Both the position numbers and the translations under genes were made by a program. From the IMG/VR virus record IMGVR_UViG_3300011441_000007: a stretch of DNA of 64,000 nucleotides. One strand, written 5' to 3'. A model generated the notes under the pieces. It was not told the origin of the DNA, searched no databases, and saw only the letters and a list, made by a program, of their open reading frames with translations. Each line of letters starts with the position of its first letter. Positions within the stretch are counted from its first letter, which is position 1. Shown one piece after another: positions 23,677 through 62,809 of this stretch. The stretch comes from a virus.

Positions 23677-24054
23677 TTACCCACATTGTTGATCAGCCGC
23701 TTCTGAGTTTTTAACTGCTTGGTCAAAAAGCGTCAGTATTTCTTCATGGGTTCTTTCAGGTTTATCATTATATTTAACAAGCATACAGTCACTTAATCTA
23801 TTTGGAAACATGGGAAATGCAGACCAATAAGCATCATAAACTTCCTTATGACGATGAGGTGCAATTTCTCTTTGTAATTGATTTCTAGCTGTTTTCAAAG
23901 CACCAACAGCACAAAAACGAAAATTTGTTTCAAAGCTAATATAGTGACCCTTAATCCAATTTTCTGGATGTTCAATCAGCTTGCGAGCATTCTTGATTAT
24001 CGTTGTTCTGAAAGAGTCGGTCATTTTATTTCCTCCCTTTTCAGCGGTTTCCAA
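23677..24054 (-). CDS. KxHW...CxxGA family protein (paralog family member 1)
   Basis: Motifs HPENWIKGHY...FCAVGAL...YNDKPERTHEEILTLFDQA are shared with 31649..32017, 32010..32417 and, more distantly, 55161..55601. It overlaps the upstream DUF2384-like gene by 14 nt. Confidence 0.5.
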   Translation of the reverse strand: METAEKGGNKMTDSFRTTIIKNARKLIEHPENWIKGHYISFETNFRFCAVGALKTARNQLQREIAPHRHKEVYDAYWSAFPMFPNRLSDCMLVKYNDKPERTHEEILTLFDQAVKNSEAADQQCG

Positions 24055-27009: not shown

Positions 27010-27038
27010 TTGACAAGAAATAGAAACACGGTTAATGA
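27010..27038 (+). promoter_or_regulatory. candidate sigma70-like promoter (TTGACA-N17-TAATGA) in divergent intergenic region
   Basis: Perfect -35 TTGACA at 27010-27015. The -10 is weak. It is followed by an AGAGAGG...CCTCTCT stem and a GGAGG RBS before the 27182 start. Confidence 0.3.
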
Positions 27039-27181
27039 TGATATGCCTGCTTTTCAGTTGTTCGTTTTTCTACTCCTTTTTGGGCAACTGGATGGGTGTC
27101 AGGCGTCCTGTGTCGGGGAGAGAGAGGTTAGCGCAGAACCGCTGGCCTCTCTTTCTTTCGCAAACAAATGGAGGAATGAAT

Positions 27182-27526
27182 ATGTCATTTCAAAATCCTG
27201 AAATAAAGACATTTGAGGAAATTAAACGTCCATCTATAAGCACGTTTGAAGAAGCAATAAAATATTTAAGAATGTTTGCACAAGATTTCCCATGGGTAGT
27301 TCATATGGGTTACAAAGTTGATGACAACAATCCTGATGTAATGAAAGGTCGTTATTATATTGGTATGAATATATCTAAAGAAACACGAGTTTATATATTT
27401 GACACGGAAGCTGCGAAAACTCGTGAACTAAAAAACAGCAGATCATTTAAGGATGGTTGGCCTCCAGAAATGATAACCAAAAAGCCTGATTTTATGGCTA
27501 TTGTGCGTGAAATGGTAAGGAGATAA
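27182..27526 (+). CDS. hypothetical protein (114 aa)
   Basis: ATG at 27182 preceded by GGAGG at 7-nt spacing. The longer 27035 start lies inside the promoter/leader region. Confidence 0.45.
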   Translation: MSFQNPEIKTFEEIKRPSISTFEEAIKYLRMFAQDFPWVVHMGYKVDDNNPDVMKGRYYIGMNISKETRVYIFDTEAAKTRELKNSRSFKDGWPPEMITKKPDFMAIVREMVRR

Positions 27527-27532
27527 AATGCC

Positions 27533-27742
27533 ATGAAAACTTTCATAGGGGTTGTCATTTATGTTAATATGATTGCTATAACTGTCGTGTTAGCGGGGCG
27601 TGAATATGGTCCACCTATTGAATCAGGTCAAGGTAAATTACAAGAATATCTGGCATATAGTGAATGTCGGCGCGAATTACCCTTCAAAGGAATATTCTGG
27701 CCTATCTATTGGACCTATCGTTTTTGGGATAAAGTTCTTTAG
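27533..27742 (+). CDS. small membrane protein
   Basis: 69 aa with a TM segment FIGVVIYVNMIAITVVLAG. Confidence 0.3.
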   Translation: MKTFIGVVIYVNMIAITVVLAGREYGPPIESGQGKLQEYLAYSECRRELPFKGIFWPIYWTYRFWDKVL

Positions 27743-28032
27743 TCATCCATCTTACAATAATCATTTGCCGCAGCTGGATCGGGAGCATGCACAATCACGG
27801 GGATTCCCGCGATAAAAACTGTGTGCCCTGTGTTGATCAACTGTCCATTACCATGCGTGCAAACATCACCTCTTACAGCCCATAGTTTGGAATTCACAAA
27901 AACTGAAGACTGACCGATAACAATTGTTTTTGCTCCACAAACTCTTGAATGCCCATGAAGATGATCCATTTTGGAATAGCAAAATGTGTTGTCAGAACCT
28001 TGTGCAGTTTTTGGATTGCAATGTAAACTCAT
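27739..28032 (-). CDS. PAAR-repeat spike tip protein
   Basis: 97 aa with PAAR-like motifs (AVRGDVCTHGNG; IAGIPVIVHAPDPAAAND) and Cys/His residues for Zn. Its stop overlaps the start of 27533..27742 on the opposite strand. Confidence 0.75.
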   Translation of the reverse strand: MSLHCNPKTAQGSDNTFCYSKMDHLHGHSRVCGAKTIVIGQSSVFVNSKLWAVRGDVCTHGNGQLINTGHTVFIAGIPVIVHAPDPAAANDYCKMDD

Positions 28033-28505
28033 AATCCTGGCTTCCTATTCCAACTTTTCTGTTGAACTTTCATGCGTCCGCCTCTTGCTTTGAATGACGC
28101 AAGCCCGCCTTGTTGTTTGTGATGACTAATAATATCTCTTGCTATAGATGATGTTTTTCTTAGGCGCGGTACATAGTTTCCAGGTTTGCGATTGTAATTG
28201 GCTTGCCCGCCCCCGCCTGTTTTGAACACACCAAGGGGAGTTTGTACTGGAATATTACCTTTCATAGATTGACGAAGCATTGTCATTTTTGGATTGTTAT
28301 ACAGTCCAATTTTTTGATATACGGATTGTTTCATCGCTCCTAGATTATAGTATTTTCTAGGAAGACCAGCGCGTAATCTCTTGAAAACACTTTTTTTAAG
28401 ACCAGTAAGACCAATAGCTTTGTTTGTAGAAATACCAATATGTCTCATTGGCGAAATATTAGTGCCTAAAAATCCTTCTGTTAGTATTTCTCTAAGTTTT
28501 TTCAA
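28029..28505 (-). CDS. basic internal-protein-like protein (CTS MKKLREILTE)
   Basis: 158 aa, highly basic and Gly-rich. The N-terminal 10 aa end in L-T-E like the T4 CTS. Confidence 0.5.
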   Translation of the reverse strand: MKKLREILTEGFLGTNISPMRHIGISTNKAIGLTGLKKSVFKRLRAGLPRKYYNLGAMKQSVYQKIGLYNNPKMTMLRQSMKGNIPVQTPLGVFKTGGGGQANYNRKPGNYVPRLRKTSSIARDIISHHKQQGGLASFKARGGRMKVQQKSWNRKPGL

Positions 28506-28512
28506 TGTAATT

Positions 28513-28641
28513 TTATGCTATCCAAAGAAGTGTTATTGTAACTGCCATAAAGAAGGATACTTGTATGGCGACCGAAACGTCACTTCCTGTTTTCTTGAAA
28601 AAATAAAAGAAGAACAGGTAAACGCCCAGAAACAATAGCAT
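28513..28641 (-). CDS. small hydrophobic ORF (about 42 aa) directly downstream of a TATAAATA motif
   Basis: MLLFLGVYLFFFYFFKK...VSFFMAVTITLLWIA has two hydrophobic stretches. AGGA lies 5 nt upstream and a T4-late-type TATAAATA (28658-28665, minus) just upstream. Confidence 0.25.
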   Translation of the reverse strand: MLLFLGVYLFFFYFFKKTGSDVSVAIQVSFFMAVTITLLWIA

Positions 28642-28657
28642 ATATCCTAGCATTATT

Positions 28658-28665
28658 TATTTATA
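28658..28665 (-). promoter_or_regulatory. T4 late-promoter-type motif TATAAATA
   Basis: Exact 8-mer on the minus strand, upstream of the small ORF and the CTS protein gene. Confidence 0.35.
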
Positions 28666-28736
28666 AAGACAAAGCAATAAGCTGAGATTCTGCCTTAGAT
28701 TTGCCATAATAGTAGATGTTAGATGTGAGAATAACC

Positions 28737-28767
28737 CCATACACATCCAGAAACATGATGTGTATGG
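28737..28767 (+). promoter_or_regulatory. perfect 11-bp inverted repeat CCATACACATC-N9-GATGTGTATGG upstream of REC gene
   Basis: Seen directly. It lies about 50-70 nt upstream of the REC start, with GATGT(T/G) half-site-like direct repeats just upstream at 28716-28730. Confidence 0.45.
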
Positions 28768-28813
28768 AATCATACTTACGATTGCCGCAATGATGATGGA
28801 TGGTTGAAAGAGA

Positions 28814-29233
28814 GTGTGGGGAAAGAAGGGATCAATGAAACTTCGTGGTGAAACTGTGCTCATCGTAGAAGATGAGCCCATAATCGCTTTGGAAATTCAT
28901 GCCATCGCCAGTGAGGACGGCGCCAGCGTGATTGCTGCGCTATCTTGTAAAGAGGCAAAAAAAATGGCTACATCCTGTGATATTTCAGTTGCAATCCTTG
29001 ATGTCAGATTGGATAACGAGGATTGCACGGAATTGATTTGCCATCATTTAAGAGCGCGAAAAATACCTTTCATGTTCTACACTGGTTTTAATAAACATGA
29101 GATAATGTCAATGTGGCCAGATGTTCCAGTTATTGAGAAACCGGCTTCACAAACTTTAATTTTGGAAGGAATGCGGCAATTGTTGTTTTCCAAAAAGGTT
29201 AACGCAAACAGAACACAAAAGGAGCAAGTCTGA
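28814..29233 (+). CDS. stand-alone response-regulator receiver (REC/CheY-like) domain protein
   Basis: VLIVEDEPIIALEI...AILDVRLDN...FMFYTGF...IEKPAS carries all the conserved REC residues (acidic pair, phospho-Asp, Thr, Lys). It is the only plus-strand gene in a minus-strand block and looks slightly GC-richer. An alternative start lies at 28835. Confidence 0.7.
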   Translation: MWGKKGSMKLRGETVLIVEDEPIIALEIHAIASEDGASVIAALSCKEAKKMATSCDISVAILDVRLDNEDCTELICHHLRARKIPFMFYTGFNKHEIMSMWPDVPVIEKPASQTLILEGMRQLLFSKKVNANRTQKEQV

Positions 29234-29530
29234 TGGGCTGATCTTGTTCACATCATTAGAGAGTCTGTAGGGAAAATACCCTGAGACTTCTAATCCAGCT
29301 GCAATCAATTCGGAACAGAACCAAGAGTCATCTGCGCGCCAATCCCTATTAGCGGCATATGCAATCAAAGACCAATAATCATATTTCTTTCCACATTGTT
29401 CATAGAGAAAGTCATAAAAATCGTCATGAATTCTTTTTGTCGTTGGTAAATAAACGATTTTTTTGCGCCGGAATGGCATATAGTTTGATGGTCGCACACA
29501 AACACCACTCCAAGGTCTTGCACCAAGCAA
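29156..29530 (-). CDS. YiiX/YaeF-like permuted papain-fold (peptidase C92 / DUF830) protein; possibly frameshifted or non-ATG start
   Basis: EQCGKKYDYWSLIAYAANRDWRADDSWFCSELIAAG resembles E. coli YiiX (GKPYDFSFSW.DDRQYCSEVV). The conserved region (GSLIISFGTHGWAAHVD) extends upstream of the TTG start to a TAA with no in-frame ATG. A 53-aa ATG ORF sits in another frame just upstream (29683..29838). Confidence 0.4.
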   Translation of the reverse strand: MLGARPWSGVCVRPSNYMPFRRKKIVYLPTTKRIHDDFYDFLYEQCGKKYDYWSLIAYAANRDWRADDSWFCSELIAAGLEVSGYFPYRLSNDVNKISPSDLLLLCSVCVNLFGKQQLPHSFQN

Positions 29531-29841
29531 ATCACCATTGGAGTTAACGACAGCATCAACGTGTGCTGCCCAGCCATGTGTTCCAAAACTGATTATTAAT
29601 GATCCTGGAGTAAATTCAGCAGCAAATTGAAGAACTATTTCGTGTATTTTATTTTCCCCTTTCTTATCCCTTTTTAGTAAATATTTTTACATCACGCCCC
29701 AATAATGAAACGTAATGAATGCGTTTTCCTAACTTGTGATCAAACTTAGTTGTCGTTCCTGGAATCCTTTTCCATATCCTGCTTATCCAGCATAGAGGAG
29801 GTATTGTTTCACCACGCATCCGCATTTGTATTTATTCTCCC

Positions 29842-30423
29842 TCAGTTGCAAGAGCACGTAAAGAAGTTTATGCCTTTATCTTCTATTTTCGTGCCTGTTA
29901 CCTTTTCATAGTGTTCCCAAAAGATTTTCGGGGTGTAGTCTCCTTCATATCTTCCACCCTCACAAAGATATTCACCATGTTTTATTCGGTCTTCAGCAAC
30001 CTCCATTATTCTTTCATAAGAAAGCCCATGAGATGAAGCAAAATCTTCAAGCCATCGTTCACTAAAGGTTTTATCATCAACCGGACCAAAAGCTGGATGT
30101 TCCCAAACGTGTTTCAGAGATGTAACTGTTTTGGGATAAAGAAATAAGAAGCACCATTGCCCTTTATCTATGGAATGTTCTAGATAAGGATCAATGATAC
30201 CAATAAAAGATGTTGGTTTGGCGAAGACAGTTGTAATGTCTCCTATTCTTCCAAATCCTACATGTTGTCCTGGAAAAAGTCGCTCGCCAGCTTGTACAGA
30301 AGCAAGAGCGACATGTATTGCGTCTTTTTCAACTGGAGCTTCAAGAATTTTACCAATAAGAGAATGTGCATCCGTCATTTTCTCATGATCCTCAGTCTTT
30401 TTGGTTTTGGCTTCTTCCGCCAT
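29842..30423 (-). CDS. hypothetical protein (193 aa)
   Basis: Clean ORF. No motif recognised. Confidence 0.45.
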   Translation of the reverse strand: MAEEAKTKKTEDHEKMTDAHSLIGKILEAPVEKDAIHVALASVQAGERLFPGQHVGFGRIGDITTVFAKPTSFIGIIDPYLEHSIDKGQWCFLFLYPKTVTSLKHVWEHPAFGPVDDKTFSERWLEDFASSHGLSYERIMEVAEDRIKHGEYLCEGGRYEGDYTPKIFWEHYEKVTGTKIEDKGINFFTCSCN

Positions 30424-30620
30424 TCGCGGATTGCTTCAGCGAGTAGCCATATCGTATAGATTGTTAAGAAAGGAATTGCAAGCCAAAAGATGATACGATT
30501 CTGAAAAAATTCAACGAAATCTACAGTAGAAAGACTCTCAAATAGATCAAAGACGAAAGAAGTGCACAAAATAGCCCAAACGGAAAGACCAGTTACAATG
30601 AGTGCTTTCCGTATGTGCAT
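30375..30620 (-). CDS. holin-like small membrane protein (2 TMDs, charged C-terminus)
   Basis: MHIRKALIVTGLSVWAILCTSFVF...IIFWLAIPFLTIYTIWLLAEAI...KKPKPKRLRIMRK. It starts just after the endolysin stop. The longer frame, open to 30767, overlaps the endolysin 3' end. Confidence 0.45.
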   Translation of the reverse strand: MHIRKALIVTGLSVWAILCTSFVFDLFESLSTVDFVEFFQNRIIFWLAIPFLTIYTIWLLAEAIREWRKKPKPKRLRIMRK

Positions 30621-30633
30621 TTGGTTCCACCTT

Positions 30634-31446
30634 TTATTGGACCCATTCTTTTGCCAGTTGTTCGGCTGTTCCGGGATAGCTGTTGATATCACATGGTCCA
30701 GCTTTGTCTTCCTTTTTCTTGCCAGCGATTCCAGGGATAAGGTGTGGTAGTGGTCCATAGCGTCCATCCGTAAACTGCCAGAGCCAATAGTTGTCCCATG
30801 TTATGGGAACAACTGCTTTAGGTCCATACTGAGCAACCCAGAGGCGATGTAGAGCTAAAAACTCATCTTTAGTTTTTCCAAGTTTTTCCTTTATAAGACT
30901 GCCTGAATAAAGAACTGGTCTTTGGCCTGTTCTTTCATAGACTTGTTTCAAGAATTCTTTTGCCTGAGAAAGCGACATTGTTCCGCCGCTTGTTGTATTT
31001 GGCTCATAATCCAAGCAAAGTAGAGTTCTTTTACCATTAGCCTCATAGTCAACAGTTTTTAAGAAATTAATGACTTGGCGAGAAACGCTGCCAGCATCAC
31101 CGAAATGGTAAGCGCCAACGAGAAGTCCAGCAGCAATAGCTTCTTTTCTTCGGGCGGTAAACGTCTTGTCCACATAGCCTATTCCTTGTGTTGACTTCAG
31201 AATCACTCCCACAATACCAGCTTTCTTTATTTCAACAAAAGAACGAACTACATTGTGGTGTGATAAGTCTAGAACTAAAGGATTAACCTTTGTATGGTCT
31301 TTCTTAACTTCTACAACCACTGGAGGCGGTGCTGGTGTGGGAACAGGTGGTGTAGGTGTTGGCACAGCTATAACAGGTTCAGGTTTGTTGTCAACCCCTG
31401 AAAATGCTTTAACTATATCTTTTATTAAGTCAATGAAAGTAGGCAT
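30634..31446 (-). CDS. GH25-family lysozyme (endolysin / muramidase)
   Basis: Motifs LVLDLSHHN, GAYHFGD and LWVAQY...WQFTDGRYGP match the GH25 signature (D-x-S-x-x-Q; AYHF; WQYT). The N-terminus has a Pro-rich linker. RBS AGGAG upstream. Confidence 0.75.
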   Translation of the reverse strand: MPTFIDLIKDIVKAFSGVDNKPEPVIAVPTPTPPVPTPAPPPVVVEVKKDHTKVNPLVLDLSHHNVVRSFVEIKKAGIVGVILKSTQGIGYVDKTFTARRKEAIAAGLLVGAYHFGDAGSVSRQVINFLKTVDYEANGKRTLLCLDYEPNTTSGGTMSLSQAKEFLKQVYERTGQRPVLYSGSLIKEKLGKTKDEFLALHRLWVAQYGPKAVVPITWDNYWLWQFTDGRYGPLPHLIPGIAGKKKEDKAGPCDINSYPGTAEQLAKEWVQ

Positions 31447-31569
31447 TTTTTCTCCTAAAGATGTAAAGTGTTTATTAAGTCAATCATAATAACCAAAAAG
31501 AGGACTAATACCAAAAAAAGGATAAACAGACAAAACAATTGCCCAACTCCTTTGATGTTATTCCTCTAT

Positions 31570-31577
31570 TATTTATA
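31570..31577 (-). promoter_or_regulatory. T4 late-promoter-type motif TATAAATA upstream of the endolysin gene
   Basis: Exact 8-mer on the minus strand about 124 nt upstream of the endolysin ATG. Confidence 0.3.
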
Positions 31578-31586
31578 AGAAGTGAC

Positions 31587-31615
31587 TTGACAAAAAGGCT
31601 GTTACGATATATTAA
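31587..31615 (+). promoter_or_regulatory. sigma70-like promoter TTGACA-N17-TATTAA
   Basis: Perfect -35 with 17-nt spacer and a 4/6 -10. It is followed by GGAAGAGG and the ATG at 31649. Confidence 0.45.
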
Positions 31616-31648
31616 TGGCTGAGTCTTATGGAAGAGGTAAACTCGTAA

Positions 31649-32017
31649 ATGACCCGCACCGAAATCTTACAAAAGACCAGAGAAATCCTTGCTGATGAAA
31701 AGCATTGGACTCAAAAAGCTTTCGTCATAACAAAGTTTAATGAAGGAAAACCGTTTTTTGTCTGTTGTCTTATGGGAGCCATGAATATGGCAATTGCCGA
31801 TAGCTATGCGCTATCGGTTAAGGGTCATCAAGAAGCGCAAGTTATATTGTTAAACATTATTAAGAAAAAATATGTCAAAGGCTATGCTAGTCTTATACCT
31901 TTTAATGATGACGAAGAACGCACCCATTTAGATATTATAGAATTGTTGGATGAGGGAATTGTAAAGTCCCTTGCAATGAACCATGATGAAGCTGCGAAGG
32001 AGAACCACAATGTCTGA
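31649..32017 (+). CDS. KxHW...CxxGA family protein (paralog 2)
   Basis: Has EKHWTQKAFV...FFVCCLMGAMNMAI...FNDDEERTHLDIIELLDEG. Confidence 0.5.
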   Translation: MTRTEILQKTREILADEKHWTQKAFVITKFNEGKPFFVCCLMGAMNMAIADSYALSVKGHQEAQVILLNIIKKKYVKGYASLIPFNDDEERTHLDIIELLDEGIVKSLAMNHDEAAKENHNV

Positions 32018-32417
32018 CCGCAAAATCTCGGAACGCACAAAAGTCCTGATGTGCGCCAAGAAGCTTATCAGTAAAGAGGAGCATTGGACTAAACACGCTT
32101 CATTTAGAACCGAATCTGGTCACACCGTAATAAGGAGGCTTGAAGATATAGTTTCATATTGTATGTCTGGTGCTATACAGAGAGCACATGGTTGGAATAC
32201 ATCATCTTATAATTGTAATGAAGCTATGGAAACATTTCGTTTTGTAGCAAACATTATGATACTACCAATAGCCACATTCAACGACAATCATAATACAACT
32301 CATACTGATGTGTTGAGAAAGTTTGATGAACTTATTGGACTTTCTTTAGCTGATGATCAAAAAACGGAGGGGAACCATGCAGGAACCAAAGTATTCGCGG
32401 CGGCAAACCATTGTTAA
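32010..32417 (+). CDS. KxHW...CxxGA family protein (paralog 3)
   Basis: Start at MSDRK. Has EEHWTKHASF...YCMSGAIQRA...FNDNHNTTHTDVLRKFDEL. Overlaps the previous gene by 8 nt. Confidence 0.5.
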   Translation: MSDRKISERTKVLMCAKKLISKEEHWTKHASFRTESGHTVIRRLEDIVSYCMSGAIQRAHGWNTSSYNCNEAMETFRFVANIMILPIATFNDNHNTTHTDVLRKFDELIGLSLADDQKTEGNHAGTKVFAAANHC

Positions 32418-32700
32418 GTTCCATGATCTTCATAGCTGGAATTGGGAAGAAATCGCAGAACTACTATTAATGAACAAACGAGACGTTCAGAATGCCTATT
32501 GGAAAGCAAAACATCCTGAACAAACAAAAGCACAATTAGAACGTTGGCGCCAAAGCCATCATGAGTATATGATAAAATATGGCGGGAACTGGAGGAGAAC
32601 GAACCGAGTAAAACGACGGATGCATGAAAAAACCTATCGCGACAAAAAACGCATGAAACGGAAATATGGAGGAATCTATGCCACGCGATATGCTACTTGA
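32377..32700 (+). CDS. small basic HTH-like DNA-binding protein
   Basis: WNWEEIAELLLMNKRDVQNAYWKAK is HTH-like. The C-terminus is very basic. Confidence 0.4.
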   Translation: MQEPKYSRRQTIVKFHDLHSWNWEEIAELLLMNKRDVQNAYWKAKHPEQTKAQLERWRQSHHEYMIKYGGNWRRTNRVKRRMHEKTYRDKKRMKRKYGGIYATRYAT

Positions 32701-32762
32701 GGCCGAAGTTCTAGAAAAAGCAGATCACTCACACTATCAACAAATTTAAGGAGCGCGATCTA

Positions 32763-32924
32763 ATGATTCCGCCATGGGTTGAAATGACTGCATTGGGTCT
32801 GATTATGATGGCAGCTGTCGTATTTCTTTTCTTTTGGGGTCGTAGTATGTGGTTGTTCCCAAAAGAGCATCAGCAAATCAAAGAGCGGGCTTTGTCTACT
32901 TCACGGGAAGAACAAAAAGGATAA
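32763..32924 (+). CDS. small membrane ORF (53 aa)
   Basis: MIPPWVEMTALGLIMMAAVVFLFFWG... preceded by AAGGAG. Below the ORF-track size cut-off. Confidence 0.25.
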   Translation: MIPPWVEMTALGLIMMAAVVFLFFWGRSMWLFPKEHQQIKERALSTSREEQKG

Positions 32925-33038
32925 AATAGGCCGCGACTACAAAAATCACCATGACGCCCCAATCACGGAGCCATTCAGGGCCTTGAATGGTGAATGGCTC
33001 AAAGATTGTGCGTGAGCGTAGTTTGAACCATCTTCTTC

Positions 33039-33266
33039 TCATGTTTTATATTTCCTTATTGATGGTAAACTGTCTCTATTGCGCCGTTGTTTCTCTTGTA
33101 AATCGGATAGTTCAAGCTCTGGTCCATAAACCGCTAAGACGTTCCATAAACCCGCTTCCCCTTTCAAAACAATCCTCGCCCCCATTTTAGCTCCACGCTT
33201 TTCAATCCATCCTACCGTGCGCTGGCCATCCTGCTCAAACAAACACTGTAAGTGAGGATTCTTCAT
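33039..33266 (-). CDS. hypothetical small protein
   Basis: 75-aa ORF contiguous with the gene cluster. Confidence 0.35.
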   Translation of the reverse strand: MKNPHLQCLFEQDGQRTVGWIEKRGAKMGARIVLKGEAGLWNVLAVYGPELELSDLQEKQRRNRDSLPSIRKYKT

Positions 33267-33269
33267 ACG

Positions 33270-33842
33270 TTACTCCTTCTTTCTGGCAACGAACCTACTA
33301 TTTTCATATTCAGGCCGATAGTTATTTCCCCACTTATCTCCAGTATGCAGTGTGAGACGCCCACGGAATAACCCCCCAAGGATTCCAGGCCCCATGTGTT
33401 GCATCTCAATATCTGAGTGTTGCTGGAGAATTCGCCAAGTCTCGCGGCCTCCCTTAGTCTGTATATCAGATGAGTGTAAAGTCAAGTTGTGATTTGGGTG
33501 TGTGATCAGATGGTGATAAAATTCATGAGCCTTGATAGATGCACCTTTTCGGCCGCGCAATTCATTTACTTTCAAAATACCGTTTTTCTCAAATCCATTT
33601 ACATGCATATCAACCTTCTTTGTTTTTGGGTTGAAAGCTGAATAACTTCTCACTCTGATACCTTTACAGAAAATTTGATGCCCAGATGGCATAGTTGACA
33701 TAGGTTTATTCCAACGCCAAAGATTTATACCACTATCATTGTCTCTGAAGGTATGTGTATCTCTTGACACATTCTTATCATTCATTGGATAAGGTGTTTC
33801 AAGTAAAAATTCTTTGAAGCGAAGGATTAATTTGGTCATCAT
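33270..33842 (-). CDS. His-containing protein with CTS-like N-terminus (MTKLILRFKEFLLE)
   Basis: The N-terminus ends L-L-E. Contains AHEFYHHLITHPNHN. Confidence 0.45.
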   Translation of the reverse strand: MMTKLILRFKEFLLETPYPMNDKNVSRDTHTFRDNDSGINLWRWNKPMSTMPSGHQIFCKGIRVRSYSAFNPKTKKVDMHVNGFEKNGILKVNELRGRKGASIKAHEFYHHLITHPNHNLTLHSSDIQTKGGRETWRILQQHSDIEMQHMGPGILGGLFRGRLTLHTGDKWGNNYRPEYENSRFVARKKE

Positions 33843-34375
33843 TATGGATTCATTGAAATGATGCCAGCTTTAATAGTATGTGTTCCACCAGTTTCAGTTG
33901 TTAAATTACCAGCAACTTTTAGATTCATGTTGCCTTTTACATTCATATTGTGATTTCCTTTAACGCCAGTATACATATCCCCAGCGACAGCAACTTTGGC
34001 GTTTCCCCCAACAATTACGTTAGTATGACCACCAGTCACGCTATCAGAATCTCCCCTAACGGTAATTATTGTGCCACCATTATTATTTTCTCGTTTATGC
34101 CCATGGCCTTTTTTATCCTCATTCTCATCAATCGTAATCGTTACGCCCCCTTTATTATATTGTTGATAGTTTCCAACAGTAAGCTCAACTTTACGACCAT
34201 CGGGAGAGATTTCAATATATGTTCCCTTTTTATGAGCGAACCGAATGCGTTCTTTTCCTGGAGTGTTATCAACATGAAACTCATGCCCAGCTTCAGTTAA
34301 CCAAGCTTGGTTAAAAGGATACTTTGATTCATATGACGTTTTAGCAATACGTGTCTTTTTATCTTTACCGGCCAT
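33842..34375 (-). CDS. central spike beta-helix needle protein (gp5 C-terminal-like)
   Basis: Gly/Val/Asn repeat segments (VIVGGNAKVAVAGDMYTGVKGNHNMNVKGNMNLKVAGN) typical of a triple beta-helix. PAAR and hub genes lie nearby. Confidence 0.45.
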   Translation of the reverse strand: MAGKDKKTRIAKTSYESKYPFNQAWLTEAGHEFHVDNTPGKERIRFAHKKGTYIEISPDGRKVELTVGNYQQYNKGGVTITIDENEDKKGHGHKRENNNGGTIITVRGDSDSVTGGHTNVIVGGNAKVAVAGDMYTGVKGNHNMNVKGNMNLKVAGNLTTETGGTHTIKAGIISMNP

Positions 34376-34376
34376 T

Positions 34377-34766
34377 TTATTCTATTTCCTGCTCCAATTG
34401 TTCTAATTCTTCTTCTAGTAATTTAATTGTTCTTCTAATCTCTTCTTCAGCTGCAATGAGTTCTGGTGTCTGTGGATCAATAGCTAACATTTCTTCTAAC
34501 ATTTTCCGAAGTCTTTCCAACTCAGCTTTTATTTCTTCAATTCTTTTTTTCTTCGCCGTATTATTTTGATTAGGGGGGTTTGAAAAAGCTTGAGCTACTT
34601 CAGACATCATACTTGCAAGATTACCAGCCCCAACAGCTTGTTCCATTGTTGGATTTCCACTAGATTCTCTTAAACTCTTAACTAAATCTAAAGCTTTCTT
34701 AATAGAGCCTGAGACATTATCAGGGGTTTTAGCCTTTGTAAAATCTGTAGCAGACTTCTTACTCAC
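34377..34766 (-). CDS. acidic coiled-coil protein
   Basis: The C-terminus KKKRIEEIKAELERLRKMLEEM...LLEEELEQLEQEIE is a heptad coiled coil. Confidence 0.4.
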   Translation of the reverse strand: MSKKSATDFTKAKTPDNVSGSIKKALDLVKSLRESSGNPTMEQAVGAGNLASMMSEVAQAFSNPPNQNNTAKKKRIEEIKAELERLRKMLEEMLAIDPQTPELIAAEEEIRRTIKLLEEELEQLEQEIE

Positions 34767-34892
34767 TTACCTATTTTTCCTCTAATAAATTTTTTCCAAC
34801 ATCTTTTACAAAGAAATCGTGTAAAAGACTCGCCTGGATATCTCAAGTTATAATATCTAGTTGTAGGTTTATCACAATAATAACAATCAACA

Positions 34893-35453
34893 TCAAGCGT
34901 AAGCATACTCGGCAATGGAATGATTTTGTTTTTCATCTTCATCTACTTCTTTTCCCTTTTTCTTTCCATAGGGGTTCTCACTTTTCTTTTTCCCATAGTC
35001 TGTTACACTTTCTTGATCATAGTCTTTTTTGTCAGAGGCATAACGAAAGTCGCCGCCTCCTTTTTCTTTGTCGCGGGAATGACGATTCAAGTCATGTTTG
35101 CGACCTTGTTGATTTAGTTCCCCTTCACCTTTTTGATCCTCACCAGATTTACCGATTGAGCCTATAATCATAGGTTTTTGTTGATCACCATCAAGATAAA
35201 ACCCAATCATATAAGAATTTTCTGTAGCACCTGTGAGCGGTCCACCAAGGCCACCGTCTTGGGGATTTGTGCCAGGGCCAATCATTCTAGCCCAATGCAA
35301 TTGATCGTCTGGGATGCCTCCCTTGTCGTCCTGATAGCCTACAGCCCGCACACGTAGGCGGCCAGCCTGTTCTGGATCACCCTTGCGATCTACAACTTGT
35401 AAAATAACGTGACGGCCGGCGCCACCATATGCACTCTTAGATGGATGTGCCAT
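34893..35453 (-). CDS. baseplate hub/spike OB-fold protein (gp5 N-terminal / gpV-like)
   Basis: VILQVVDRKGDPEQAGRLRVRAVGYQDD...IPDDQLHWARMIGP matches the Phage_base_V / gp5 OB-domain pattern (GRVRVR motif). The C-terminus is a charged low-complexity tail. Confidence 0.55.
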   Translation of the reverse strand: MAHPSKSAYGGAGRHVILQVVDRKGDPEQAGRLRVRAVGYQDDKGGIPDDQLHWARMIGPGTNPQDGGLGGPLTGATENSYMIGFYLDGDQQKPMIIGSIGKSGEDQKGEGELNQQGRKHDLNRHSRDKEKGGGDFRYASDKKDYDQESVTDYGKKKSENPYGKKKGKEVDEDEKQNHSIAEYAYA

Positions 35454-53029: not shown

Positions 53030-53076
53030 AAAAAGGGTGCTTCCTTTTTAATCCGGGAAGCACCCTTTCTTTTTCT
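53030..53076. terminator. bidirectional rho-independent terminator
   Basis: Stem GGGTGCTTCC/GGAAGCACCC flanked by A5 on the 5' side and TTTCTTTTTC on the 3' side, between convergent genes. Confidence 0.6.
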
Positions 53077-53110
53077 AAACAAGGCTTGGTTTTCTGTGTT
53101 TAGAAAAAAA

Positions 53111-58313: not shown

Positions 58314-58389
58314 TGGCTCCTCAGGTAGGAATCGAACCTACAACCTCCACCTTAACAGGGTGTCTCTCTACCAATTGAGATACTGAGGA
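58314..58389 (-). tRNA. tRNA-Asn (anticodon GTT), CCA encoded
   Basis: Manual fold: acceptor TCCTCAG/CTGAGGA, D-arm TCTC-AATTGGTA-GAGA, anticodon loop CTGTTAA, T-arm GTAGG-TTCGATT-CCTAC, discriminator G, then CCA. One A·G mismatch closes the anticodon stem. Confidence 0.75.
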
Positions 58390-60822: not shown

Positions 60823-60886
60823 TAGCTACCCAAACGAATATCCCTCCTAGCCTTGTGAGCTAGGAGGGAGTATCCCCTTTCCGTTT

Positions 60887-62476: not shown

Positions 62477-62809
62477 TCAAACATTTGACGGTCTTCTTCC
62501 TACAATATCATAAACAGCTTGCATACAATCCACTTTTGGTTCTGGCTTGAAAATACCGCACTGAAACCCTTTAGAATTGCGGTATTTTATACATGCAGTT
62601 ATATTTTCTTGTGTTTTCATTGCAATAATCATCATCGTATCTGTTACCGATGCATAAGCTTGATTATCATCTTCAAATTTATCATATGGTGTAGTTACAC
62701 CACTCCAGCAAGCATAAGGATAGATTGTCTTGATTTTATCCAATATCCAATTATAATTATCCTGATACTTTACATCAGGAACGAACCCAGCTAATGTATT
62801 ATTTACCAT
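62477..62809 (-). CDS. paralog A with conserved C-terminus ...DCMQAVYDIVGRRP
   Basis: 110 aa. The C-terminal 14 aa are nearly identical to those of the next gene. Confidence 0.4.
   Translation of the reverse strand: MVNNTLAGFVPDVKYQDNYNWILDKIKTIYPYACWSGVTTPYDKFEDDNQAYASVTDTMMIIAMKTQENITACIKYRNSKGFQCGIFKPEPKVDCMQAVYDIVGRRPSNV

What the first reader, a model, noticed from the sequence alone, without database searches (positions are those of the whole stretch)
28700..29233. Stand-alone response-regulator receiver (CheY-like) gene with a perfect palindrome upstream, inserted in the baseplate/lysis region
The 139-aa plus-strand ORF has every hallmark of a REC domain (acidic pair in VEDEP, phospho-acceptor Asp in ILDVRLD, Thr in FYTG, Lys in EKP). 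It has no output domain. It is the only plus-strand gene inside a long minus-strand block and looks GC-richer than the surrounding sequence. It is preceded by a perfect 11-bp inverted repeat (28737-28767) plus GATGT(G/T) direct repeats. A phage-encoded single-domain response regulator could act as a phosphate sink or decoy for a host two-component pathway, for example chemotaxis or a developmental or cell-cycle phosphorelay. The GC difference suggests host origin.
Basis: partly seen in the sequence, partly recalled or inferred. Interest (0 to 1): 0.75.

Follow-up and report, generated by a model that had tools for sequence, protein, structure and literature searches.

The report
Phage-borne stress-pathway-type receiver protein
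A T4-like phage carries a small bacterial signalling receiver protein of the type that alphaproteobacteria use in their stress-response phosphorelay, so it probably tampers with host signalling during infection, although this has not been tested.

Summary
The gene is real. The protein most likely runs from ATG 28835 to the stop at 29233 (132 aa, not 139). It is a stand-alone receiver (REC) domain with all catalytic residues (E12/D13, D56, T83, K102).

It is not CheY-like in the narrow sense. It belongs to the alphaproteobacterial "FATGUY" class, whose motif is PFxFATG[G/Y]; here the motif reads PFMFYTGF. It has no aromatic switch residue on strand β5. Its best solved-structure matches are 2MSW, SdrG, Sma0114 and the PhyR receiver.

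Cellular relatives are almost all alphaproteobacterial. In 32 of 80 loci they sit next to, or are fused to, HWE/HisKA2 histidine kinases.

The phage is a T4-like myovirus whose nearest isolates are Caulobacter phage Cr30 and Sinorhizobium phages. About 50 related phage contigs lack the gene. Only this lineage carries it (window, L001/L002, and L095 at 67% identity), inside a roughly 5 kb accessory island between gp5 and PAAR/gp25. dN/dS is about 0.14.

The 11-bp palindrome is real and rarer than chance, but it is not conserved in L095. The claims "GC-richer" and "only plus-strand gene" are not supported.

The most likely role is a host-derived phospho-acceptor that plugs into host HWE/HisKA2 kinase networks such as the general stress response. 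This is inferred, not shown. It is a new member of a known kind in an unusual, viral context.

The parts
28835..29233 (+). Gene for a 132-aa single-domain response regulator (REC) of the FATGUY class. Key residues are E12/D13, the phospho-acceptor D56, T83 and K102-P103. The motif P78-F-M-F-Y-T-G-F85 is on strand β4. The K-3 position is V99.
   Evidence: Pfam PF00072 at 32.8 bits. NCBIfam best hits are the PhyR receiver and PRK13435. PDB matches by sequence are 2MSW, 2LPM and 5IEB. AF2 pLDDT is 95 with a (βα)5 fold. Foldseek top hit is 2MSW. Conserved columns are shown. dN/dS is 0.14 against L095.
28814..28834 (+). 5' extension of the maximal ORF (GTG 28814). It is probably untranslated leader and contains the Shine-Dalgarno-like GAAGGGA at 28825-28831.
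   Evidence: Sequence. GAAGGGA precedes the ATG in L095 as well. ENA gene calls give 132 aa.
28737..28767 (.). Perfect 11-bp inverted repeat with a 9-nt loop. It extends to 23-nt arms at 78% complementarity (28725-28779). It lies between the promoter-like site and the REC start codon, so it could be a leader hairpin or an operator.
   Evidence: rarer than chance. It is identical in L001 but absent from L095. The RNA fold z-score is only -1.5.
28682..28710 (+). Sigma-70-like promoter match: CTGAGA, 17-nt spacer, CATAAT with an extended -10 TG. It lies upstream of the REC gene.
   Evidence: This is a consensus match only. Such sites are not enriched in the region (2 found, 5.2 expected).
28715..28762 (.). 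Cluster of four GATGTK hexamers, three direct and one inverted. Two of them are part of the palindrome.
   Evidence: The hexamer is common in the window (92 copies) and the cluster is not conserved in L095.
28513..28653 (-). Small hydrophobic 46-aa ORF transcribed divergently from REC. It is conserved in L095, and a TATAAATA (T4 late-promoter consensus) lies just upstream at 28658-28665 on the minus strand.
   Evidence: p46 is 69% identical in L095. TATAAATA is not enriched in the window (3 found, 3.9 expected).
29156..29650 (-). Convergent neighbour, a papain-like (permuted NlpC/P60-type) amidase candidate. Its 3' end overlaps the REC 3' end by 78 nt. It probably starts at an ATA codon (29650-29648) behind a strong Shine-Dalgarno sequence.
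   Evidence: phrog_1128, E = 4e-12. The gene is 85% identical in L095. It was not called by the ENA gene caller in L001.
28033..33841 (.). Lineage-specific accessory island between the gp5 C-terminal domain gene (33842-34375) and the PAAR gene (27739-28032). It carries REC, the amidase candidate, the GH25 endolysin, DUF6197 paralogs and small ORFs.
   Evidence: Gene map. About 50 related contigs and Cr30 have gp5C followed by (PAAR), gp25 and gp6 within 1.3-3.5 kb and lack these genes.

Best explanation
The gene encodes a functional single-domain response regulator of the alphaproteobacterial FATGUY class, the class of SdrG, MrrA, Sma0114, LovR-type proteins and the PhyR receiver.

An ancestor of this small T4-like phage lineage captured it from an alphaproteobacterial host lineage. 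It has since taken on the phage's low GC content and has been kept under purifying selection.

No kinase is detectable in the window or in the related phage contigs. The protein is therefore most likely phosphorylated on D56 by host HWE/HisKA2-type histidine kinases, which are the partners of its cellular relatives. It would then act as an extra phospho-acceptor in that promiscuous network. It could drain or compete for phosphoryl groups (LovR-like sink, PhyR competitor) or shuttle them (MrrA/SdrG-like hub). Either way it would re-set the host PhyR-NepR-EcfG general stress response and linked behaviours during infection.

Shown: domain identity, class, intact catalytic residues, purifying selection, lineage-specific presence, alphaproteobacterial origin, and HWE/HisKA2 linkage of cellular relatives.

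Inferred: phosphorylation by host kinases, the direction of the effect on the stress response, early expression from the sigma-70-like promoter, and any role of the upstream palindrome.
For: - REC identity: Pfam above the gathering score; AF2 pLDDT 95 with a (βα)5 fold; Foldseek returns more than 500 receiver-type hits, with 2MSW at the top.
- Class: the PDB sequence search gives 2MSW at 5e-15, Sma0114 (2LPM) at 7e-11, SdrG (5IEB) at 8e-10, and then the PhyR structures.
- With a profile, those three score 1e-19 to 3e-18 and PhyR scores 2e-10. Classical regulators are far weaker at 3e-7, and no CheY appears.
- NCBIfam's best hits are the PhyR receiver and PRK13435.
- The motif is PFMFYTGF in the window and PFMFYTGY in L095. 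139 of the 150 best representatives (152 sequences scanned, 11 without a match) carry a PFxF-x-[TS][GA]-type β4 motif, most often PFxFYTG[Y/Q/H/F].
- The K-3 position is Val, so the aromatic switch residue that FATGUY proteins lack is also absent here (PMC5964349).
- Nearly all of the best 150 hits are 115-160 aa single-domain proteins.
- Origin: almost all of the 80 best genome loci are alphaproteobacterial, with Hyphomicrobiaceae best at 43% identity.
- Kinase partners: 32 of 80 loci have an HWE/HisKA2 H-box (E-x-x-H-R-x-K-N) on the same strand within 2.6 kb upstream, against about 0.01 expected per locus. Pfam HWE_HK was confirmed in L014, L029 (a LOV kinase) and L016 (a fused kinase).
- No kinase in the window or related phage loci.
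- Phage context: the gp6 protein's nearest isolates infect Caulobacter (Cr30) and Sinorhizobium. Cr30 is also about 37% GC in the fetched stretch.
- The gene is present only in the window, L001/L002 and L095, and absent from about 50 relatives.
- Selection: dN/dS is 0.14 and the catalytic residues are kept at 67% identity.
- Biology of the class: MrrA is a promiscuous hub phosphorylated by at least six kinases, LovK-LovR act as a phosphate sink, and SdrG is phosphorylated by most HWE/HisKA2 kinases (PMC5964349).
- Precedent for phages targeting several host kinases: PIT4 (PMC10714779).
Against: - No experiment or expression data exist. The host is unknown.
- The window covers only 64 kb of a genome that is probably 150-200 kb, so a phage kinase elsewhere cannot be excluded.
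- The motif differs from the published PFxFATG[G/Y] at two positions in the window copy (A to Y, G/Y to F).
- The closest cellular orthologue group (48-51% identity) is an orphan gene next to SDR and luciferase-like genes, not next to a kinase. Its pathway is therefore unknown.
- FATGUY-like motifs also occur in CpdR and the CckA receiver, which serve the cell-cycle phosphorelay (PMC9981736). The target pathway need not be the stress response.
- The gene's dN is four times that of gp6.
- The promoter match is weak evidence.
Confidence: 0.5

Rival explanations
1. It is a protein-binding regulator rather than a phosphate sink or shuttle. In this reading the receiver, phosphorylated or not, binds and modulates a host or phage protein. 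Examples are CpdR gating ClpXP proteolysis, DivK acting on kinases, and FixT inhibiting autophosphorylation of its kinase without itself being phosphorylated.
For: Single-domain regulators often act by direct binding (PMC5964349 introduction). CpdR has a FATGUY-like motif (PMC9981736). FixT is a receiver that inhibits FixL without being phosphorylated and depends on cysteines (PMC7078487). The phage protein's subfamily has conserved C64/C69, and the two phage lineages share extra C37/C47. α5 is predicted as a long helix through residue 130.
Against: All phospho-chemistry residues are strictly kept between phage lineages that are only 67% identical. That argues phosphorylation matters. No candidate partner was identified. 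The nearest solved relatives are phosphotransfer intermediates.
Confidence: 0.2
2. It is the cognate partner of a phage-encoded histidine kinase or phosphotransferase located outside the 64-kb window, forming a phage-owned two-component pathway.
For: The window is only part of a large T4-like genome. 40% of cellular relatives sit beside or are fused to a kinase.
Against: No kinase core is detectable in the window, L001, L095/L177 or any related phage locus. In 50,697 phage records, tblastn with this receiver finds only 17 weak matches (E >= 0.6), several of them in bacterial WGS or unannotated metagenomic records. The closest cellular orthologues are orphans.
Confidence: 0.1
3. It is a CheY-type chemotaxis decoy that binds the flagellar switch or drains CheA.
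For: It is a stand-alone receiver, as CheY is. JGI auto-annotations of some relatives read 'CheY-like chemotaxis protein', which is a generic label.
Against: There is no significant similarity to E. coli CheY (E = 3.2). No CheY or CheA-related family appears among the top NCBIfam or PDB hits. The aromatic residue at K-3 needed for the CheY switch is Val. The relatives' gene neighbourhoods contain HWE kinases, not che genes.
Confidence: 0.03
4. It is a passenger gene without function in the phage, a decaying remnant of a horizontal transfer.
For: It lies in a variable accessory island. It evolves faster than its structural neighbours (dN 0.25 against 0.06 for gp6). Most related phages do without it.
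Against: The ORF is intact in two lineages whose synonymous sites are saturated (dS about 1.8). dN/dS is 0.14, all catalytic residues and the β4 motif are kept, the Shine-Dalgarno sequence is conserved, and GC is fully adjusted to the phage.
Confidence: 0.05
5. The upstream palindrome is a strain-specific hairpin with no dedicated regulatory role for REC. It could be chance, or a generic RNA-stability or terminator-like element between divergent transcription units.
For: It is not conserved in L095, where the whole 28654-28834 spacer cannot be aligned and only a 9-nt, 89%-complementary inverted repeat exists elsewhere in the spacer. The sequence is unique in the window. The leader fold z-score is -1.5. 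No T-run follows the stem.
Against: Perfect hairpins of 11 bp or more are about ten times rarer in shuffles than in the window. It sits exactly between a promoter-like site and the start codon.
Confidence: 0.5

Closest known systems
FATGUY single-domain response regulators: SdrG (Sphingomonas melonis, PDB 5IEB), MrrA (Caulobacter crescentus), Sma0114 (Sinorhizobium meliloti, PDB 2LPM), Mext_0407
   Same: All are about 120-130 aa receiver-only proteins with an EDEP acidic loop and a PFxF-x-TG-x motif on β4. They lack the aromatic switch residue on β5 and have alphaproteobacterial relatives. Their cellular relatives are linked to HWE/HisKA2 kinases (PMC5964349).
   Different: This one is encoded by a virulent-type T4-like phage at about 41% GC. 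Its motif has Tyr in place of Ala, and Phe in place of G/Y in the window copy. It is only about 30-35% identical to the characterised members. No partner kinase and no phenotype are known.
LovR-type regulators. PDB 2MSW is titled 'Ligand-induced folding of a receiver domain'. To my knowledge it is EL_LovR of Erythrobacter litoralis. Caulobacter LovK-LovR is the related system.
   Same: 2MSW is the best sequence and fold match. Erythrobacter and Qipengyuania relatives sit directly downstream of a LOV-HWE kinase. LovK-LovR is a documented phosphate sink that lowers the general stress response (PMC5964349).
   Different: The phage has no adjacent kinase. The sink function of LovR needs LovK as its phosphatase. 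The identity of 2MSW with EL_LovR rests on my memory, not on a tool result.
PhyR receiver domain (anti-anti-sigma factor of the alphaproteobacterial general stress response)
   Same: It is the best NCBIfam hit (8.6e-12) and a PDB hit (2e-10 with the profile). It shares kinase specificity with SdrG according to PMC5964349.
   Different: PhyR has an N-terminal sigma-like output domain, which the phage protein lacks.
Phage proteins that interfere with host two-component systems, for example PIT4 of Pseudomonas phage LSL4
   Same: PIT4 is a phage-encoded early protein that acts on several host histidine kinases at once (PMC10714779). This is the same kind of host take-over proposed here.
   Different: PIT4 is not a receiver domain. 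It binds kinase domains rather than accepting phosphate.
CheY (chemotaxis)
   Same: Both are stand-alone receiver domains with the same fold and the same catalytic residues.
   Different: There is no detectable pairwise similarity. The phage protein has no Y106-type switch residue, no che gene context and different partners.

Membership tests
Receiver (REC) domain, Pfam PF00072 | Profile score at or above the curated gathering score | tested here: met
   32.8 bits against 30.2. Precomputed PF00072 on P0001/P0002.
Receiver (REC) domain, Pfam PF00072 | (βα)5 flavodoxin-like fold | tested here: met
   AF2 pLDDT 95.2, with five strands and five helices in alternating order. Foldseek PDB gives 524 hits at E <= 0.001, and the top 50 are almost all receivers.
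Receiver (REC) domain, Pfam PF00072 | Catalytic residues: acidic pair after β1, phospho-acceptor Asp after β3, Thr/Ser after β4, Lys after β5 | tested here: met
   E12/D13, D56, T83 and K102(-P103). D13 and D56 are invariant, and E12, T83, K102 and P103 are at least 90% conserved in 34 relatives. All are kept in L095.
Receiver (REC) domain, Pfam PF00072 | Phosphorylation on the conserved Asp | not testable with these tools
   Needs acetyl phosphate or kinase assays.
FATGUY-class single-domain response regulators (SdrG/MrrA/Sma0114) | PFxFATG[G/Y] motif on β4 and the following loop | tested here: inconclusive
   The window has PFMFYTGF and L095 has PFMFYTGY. P, F, F, T and G are kept. Ala is replaced by Tyr, as in most of the nearest 150 relatives (PFxFYTG-x). 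The last position is F in the window and Y in L095. This is a variant of the published motif (PMC5964349).
FATGUY-class single-domain response regulators (SdrG/MrrA/Sma0114) | Lacks the aromatic residue of Y-T coupling on β5 | tested here: met
   K102-3 is V99 (sequence). The family consensus there is V/P. The criterion comes from PMC5964349.
FATGUY-class single-domain response regulators (SdrG/MrrA/Sma0114) | Closest sequence relatives are the characterised members and the PhyR receiver | tested here: met
   PDB searches and NCBIfam.
FATGUY-class single-domain response regulators (SdrG/MrrA/Sma0114) | Receiver only, with no output domain | tested here: met
   132 aa, with the domain spanning residues 7-118 and an α5 tail.
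FATGUY-class single-domain response regulators (SdrG/MrrA/Sma0114) | Works with HWE/HisKA2 histidine kinases | tested here: inconclusive
   Met for cellular relatives: 32 of 80 loci have the H-box upstream, and Pfam HWE_HK was confirmed in 3. No kinase is in the window. Phosphotransfer itself cannot be tested here.
FATGUY-class single-domain response regulators (SdrG/MrrA/Sma0114) | Role in the PhyR-NepR-EcfG general stress response | not testable with these tools
   Needs reporter or phosphotransfer assays in a host.
CheY (chemotaxis response regulator) | Sequence similarity to CheY and an aromatic switch residue (Y106 equivalent) | tested here: not met
   BLASTP E = 3.2 against E. coli CheY (sequence from memory). 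K-3 is Val. There are no CheY hits at E <= 1e-6 in the PDB profile search.
CheY (chemotaxis response regulator) | che or flagellar gene context, with CheA as phosphodonor | tested here: not met
   The neighbours are baseplate and lysis genes in the phage. In cellular relatives they are HWE kinases or SDR/luciferase-like genes.
PhyR (anti-anti-sigma factor) | N-terminal sigma-like domain fused to the receiver | tested here: not met
   The match covers only PhyR profile positions 139-256 of 258. The protein is 132 aa.

The most novel reading that the evidence does not exclude
A virulent T4-like phage of an alphaproteobacterium has domesticated a host FATGUY receiver as a molecular plug for the promiscuous HWE/HisKA2 phosphorelay. 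By stealing or re-routing phosphoryl groups from the MrrA/SdrG-PhyK/PhyT-PhyR chain, it would switch the host general stress response off (or on) during infection. This would be the first viral mimic of a phosphorelay component, and the first known phage intervention in the PhyR-NepR-EcfG pathway.
Probability: 0.3. Interest if true: 0.7.

Novelty: new member of a known kind. Interest (0 to 1): 0.5.

Why it matters
Receiver domains are among the commonest bacterial signalling modules, yet they appear to be almost absent from sequenced phages. A tblastn of this protein against 50,697 phage records gave only 17 matches, all at E >= 0.6, and several were in bacterial or unannotated metagenomic records.

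The class found here is the one that alphaproteobacteria use as promiscuous phosphorylation hubs and sinks for their general stress response. A phage copy kept under purifying selection is therefore a ready-made natural probe of that network. It would show which kinases it drains, whether shutting down or triggering the stress response helps a lytic phage, and how the partner specificity of FATGUY receivers is encoded.

It also supports assigning an alphaproteobacterial host to an uncultured T4-like phage lineage. If the protein turns out to be an ordinary, dispensable accessory gene, the finding is of limited interest.

Tried and rejected
- Near-identity DNA search of 20 kb around the gene in the phage collection: no match.
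- tblastn of the REC protein in phages at E <= 0.01: none. At E <= 10 there was only noise.
- PADLOC scan of REC and nine neighbours: no defence-system family.
- Rfam scan of the whole window: only one tRNA, and nothing at the palindrome.
- Terminator scan: the palindrome is not terminator-like because no T-run follows it.
- Folding of the leader RNA: not significantly stable (z = -1.5).
- T4 late-promoter consensus TATAAATA: present on the minus strand at 28658-28665 but not enriched in the window. I do not claim late-promoter use.
- GC-based foreign-origin argument: rejected.
- Search for a kinase in the window and in related phage loci, by H-box regular expression and by tblastn with five HWE or hybrid kinases: none found.
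- Other receivers in IMG/VR contigs (L005-L011, L178-L182): they are 25-39% identical, sit in 49-67% GC contigs, and lack the PFxFxTG motif (they carry PVIYxSGD and similar). They are unrelated acquisitions and do not belong to this lineage.
- Literature phrase searches for phage-encoded response regulators: nothing relevant.
- Discriminating a LovR-like from an SdrG/MrrA-like role by PDB E-values: not possible, because the scores are equal within noise.
Full report
**1. What is in the sequence**

The plus-strand ORF 28814-29233 exists and is 139 aa from GTG. The likely start is ATG 28835. A Shine-Dalgarno-like GAAGGGA lies at 28825-28831, and the same heptamer precedes the ATG of the homolog in L095. 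Homology to all relatives begins at the ATG, and public gene calls for the 98%-identical proteins P0001 and P0002 are 132 aa.

The palindrome CCATACACATC (28737-28747) / GATGTGTATGG (28757-28767) is perfect, with a 9-nt loop. Perfect hairpins of 11 bp or more with loops of 3-20 nt occur at five places in the window. I counted 8 start positions against 0.6 ± 0.95 in first-order Markov shuffles. As a class these hairpins are non-random.

The sequence of this particular palindrome is unique in the window. It is identical in the near-clonal contig L001. It is absent from L095, where the whole spacer corresponding to 28654-28834 cannot be aligned.

A sigma-70-like site (CTGAGA-17-CATAAT with TG) lies at 28682-28710, just upstream. 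The hairpin would therefore sit in the leader or act as an operator. The promoter scan is not enriched, and the leader fold is not unusually stable (z = -1.5).

GATGTK occurs four times within 28715-28762, but it is a common hexamer (92 copies).

**2. Claims that do not hold**

The gene is not GC-richer. It is 0.411 against a window mean of 0.401 (sd 0.043), the 64th percentile. Only GC3 is marginally higher than in the neighbours.

It is not the only plus-strand gene. Plus-strand genes lie at 27035-27742 and 31649-32924.

**3. What the protein is**

Pfam Response_reg scores 32.8 bits against a gathering score of 30.2. AlphaFold2 with a 34-sequence alignment gives pLDDT 95 and a regular (βα)5 fold with a short α4 (residues 87-93) and a long α5. 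Foldseek against the PDB returns receivers only, with 2MSW first.

The catalytic set is complete: E12/D13, D56, T83 and K102-P103.

The protein is not a generic receiver. Only 6,768 of 1.84 billion representative proteins match at E <= 0.001. The best 150 are almost all 115-160 aa receiver-only proteins carrying PFxFYTG-x on β4.

In the PDB, the three best sequence matches are 2MSW, Sma0114 (2LPM) and SdrG (5IEB), followed by the PhyR structures. With a five-sequence profile, those three score 1e-19 to 3e-18 and PhyR scores 2e-10. The best classical regulator, ArcA, scores 3e-7, and no CheY appears. NCBIfam's best hit is the PhyR receiver. BLASTP against E. coli CheY (sequence from my memory) gives E = 3.2.

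The residue three positions before the conserved Lys is V99. The aromatic partner of Y-T coupling is therefore absent, as described for FATGUY regulators (PMC5964349).

The protein is thus a member, or at least a close variant, of the FATGUY class of alphaproteobacterial single-domain regulators. Its motif is PFMFYTGF in the window and PFMFYTGY in L095, against the published PFxFATG[G/Y].

**4. Where its relatives live and with whom**

A scan of one genome per GTDB species returned 80 loci that are almost all alphaproteobacterial. They include Hyphomicrobiaceae (best, 43% identity), Sphingomonadales, Rhizobiales, Rhodobacterales and Caulobacterales.

In 32 of the 80 loci, an HWE/HisKA2 H-box (E-x-x-H-R-x-K-N) lies on the same strand within 2.6 kb upstream, so the kinase is adjacent or fused. 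About 0.01 per locus is expected from the flanks. Pfam confirmed HWE_HK in an adjacent PAS kinase (L014), an adjacent LOV kinase (L029, Erythrobacter) and a fused hybrid kinase (L016).

The closest cellular orthologue group is P0004, P0154 and P0156. These proteins are 48-51% identical to the phage protein and 83-90% identical to each other. They are orphan genes next to short-chain dehydrogenase and luciferase-like monooxygenase genes, in contigs of 64-65% GC.

**5. The phage and the insertion**

The window encodes T4-type baseplate proteins: gp6, gp25, gp7- and gp10-like wedge proteins, a gp48-like protein, gp5 pieces and PAAR. It also encodes a GH25 endolysin.

The nearest isolates by gp6 are Caulobacter phage Cr30 (37%) and Sinorhizobium phages phiN3, phiM12, phiM7 and phiM19 (36%). 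The fetched Cr30 stretch is 37% GC. A low-GC T4-like phage on a high-GC alphaproteobacterium therefore has precedent.

In Cr30 and in about 50 related IMG/VR contigs, the order gp5, (PAAR), gp25, gp6 spans 1.3-3.5 kb and contains no receiver. Only the window, L001/L002 (98% identity) and L095/L177 carry a roughly 5 kb island between gp5C and PAAR. The island contains the receiver, a papain-like amidase candidate, the endolysin, DUF6197 paralogs and small ORFs.

Between the window and L095, gp6 is 92% identical but the receiver only 67%. Even so, dN/dS is 0.14 (dS saturated at about 1.8) and every catalytic and motif residue is kept.

The gene is therefore an old, single acquisition that has been kept under selection. 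Its GC has been fully adjusted to the phage. That is why composition gives no signal of foreign origin, while homology does.

**6. No partner in sight**

Neither the H-box pattern nor tblastn with five HWE or hybrid kinases finds a kinase core in the window, L001, L095/L177 or any related phage locus. PADLOC finds no defence-system family.

**7. Mechanism (inferred)**

FATGUY regulators are unusually promiscuous. MrrA is phosphorylated by at least six kinases and passes phosphate to PhyK and LovK. LovK-LovR drain phosphate from MrrA and lower the general stress response. SdrG and PhyR are phosphorylated by most HWE/HisKA2 kinases in Sphingomonas (PMC5964349). PMC9981736 regards the motif as a mark of receiver-only phosphotransfer intermediates, including CpdR and the CckA receiver.

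A phage copy expressed in an infected alphaproteobacterium would most simply act as an additional acceptor in this open network. It would compete with PhyR or MrrA for phosphate (sink or decoy) or shuttle it.

The D+2/T+2 pair is N58/Y85 in L095. This is the same pair that PMC5964349 associates with stable MrrA~P. In the window it is R58/F85. That argues against a sink working by fast self-hydrolysis. It favours a stable competitor or shuttle, or a sink that relies on a host kinase's phosphatase activity, as LovR does.

Phage interference with several host kinases has a precedent in PIT4, although PIT4 is an unrelated protein (PMC10714779).

The alternatives are a binding-type regulator (CpdR-, DivK- or FixT-like; PMC7078487), a partner of an unseen phage kinase, a CheY-type decoy, and a functionless passenger. 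They are weighed in the rival list.

**8. Novelty**

No isolated phage among 50,697 records has a detectable homolog. The best tblastn E-value is 0.6, and several of the 17 weak hits lie in bacterial WGS records or unannotated metagenomic 'Bacteriophage sp.' records.

Receivers found in other IMG/VR contigs are 25-39% identical, lack the PFxFxTG motif and sit in 49-67% GC contigs.

Phrase searches of the literature found no report of a phage-encoded response regulator. PHROGs does hold two receiver-containing families of unknown function.

The protein family itself is known, so I file this as a new member of a known kind in a new, viral context. Interest is moderate. The biological idea is attractive and directly testable, but nothing beyond sequence inference supports the proposed target pathway.

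Noticed in passing
window 29156-29689 (minus strand): The gene convergent with REC has an open frame back to 29689. Its conserved protein begins at an ATA codon (29650-29648), 7 nt after a strong Shine-Dalgarno sequence (AAAGGGGA). The same ATA-plus-SD arrangement is present in L095. There is no ATG, GTG or TTG until 29530, and the ENA gene caller left the gene uncalled in L001. This is probably a non-canonical ATA start. The motifs AAHVD...WFCSEL suggest a permuted NlpC/P60-type amidase (my own reading), and the protein hits phrog_1128. Its 3' end overlaps the REC 3' end by 78 nt, and the overlap is kept in L095 (81 nt).
   Followed up: partly
window 33842-35453 and 30634-31446: The gp5 cell-puncturing protein appears to be split into separate OB-domain (34893-35453) and gp5_C (33842-34375) ORFs. 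A stand-alone GH25 lysozyme lies 2.4 kb away. In Cr30, by contrast, gp5 is a single hub-plus-lysozyme protein.
   Followed up: partly
window 23677-24054 (-), 31649-32017 (+), 31983-32417 (+): There are at least three DUF6197 paralogs in the window. Two are tandem and lie in the same accessory island as REC.
   Followed up: no
window 32353-32700 (+): A 115-aa basic protein in the island has a weak Sigma70_r4_2 match (E = 0.0025, below the gathering score). A 45%-identical homolog is in L095. It is a possible small DNA-binding or sigma-related protein near a PhyR-type receiver. No link between them has been shown.
   Followed up: no
window 28513-28653 (-) and 28658-28665 (-): A 46-aa hydrophobic ORF is conserved in L095. 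It is preceded by TATAAATA (the T4 late-promoter consensus), which is also conserved in L095. A second TATAAATA (31570-31577, minus strand) lies upstream of the endolysin gene. There are only 3 copies in 64 kb, so the motif is not enriched.
   Followed up: partly
window 53032-53070, 53070-53108, 60841-60869, 62550-62588: Four other perfect hairpins with 11-13 bp stems. They are probably terminators or regulatory stems between genes.
   Followed up: no
REC residues C37, C47, C64, C69 (window 28943-29041): The subfamily has a conserved D-C-x4-C pair (C64/C69). Both phage lineages add C37 and C47, although C69 is Ala in L095. This recalls the 4-Cys Fe-S-binding single-domain regulator FixT (PMC7078487). 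No structural proximity check was possible.
   Followed up: no
L173-L176 (ENA ERZ27258601, ERZ27258587, ERZ25039599; JGI 3300073952): The closest cellular orthologues of the phage REC share a conserved neighbourhood of REC, short-chain dehydrogenase and luciferase-like monooxygenase in 64-65% GC contigs. This is a candidate donor or host lineage of unknown taxonomy.
   Followed up: partly
window 58314-58389 (-): A single tRNA-Asn (GTT) gene.
   Followed up: no
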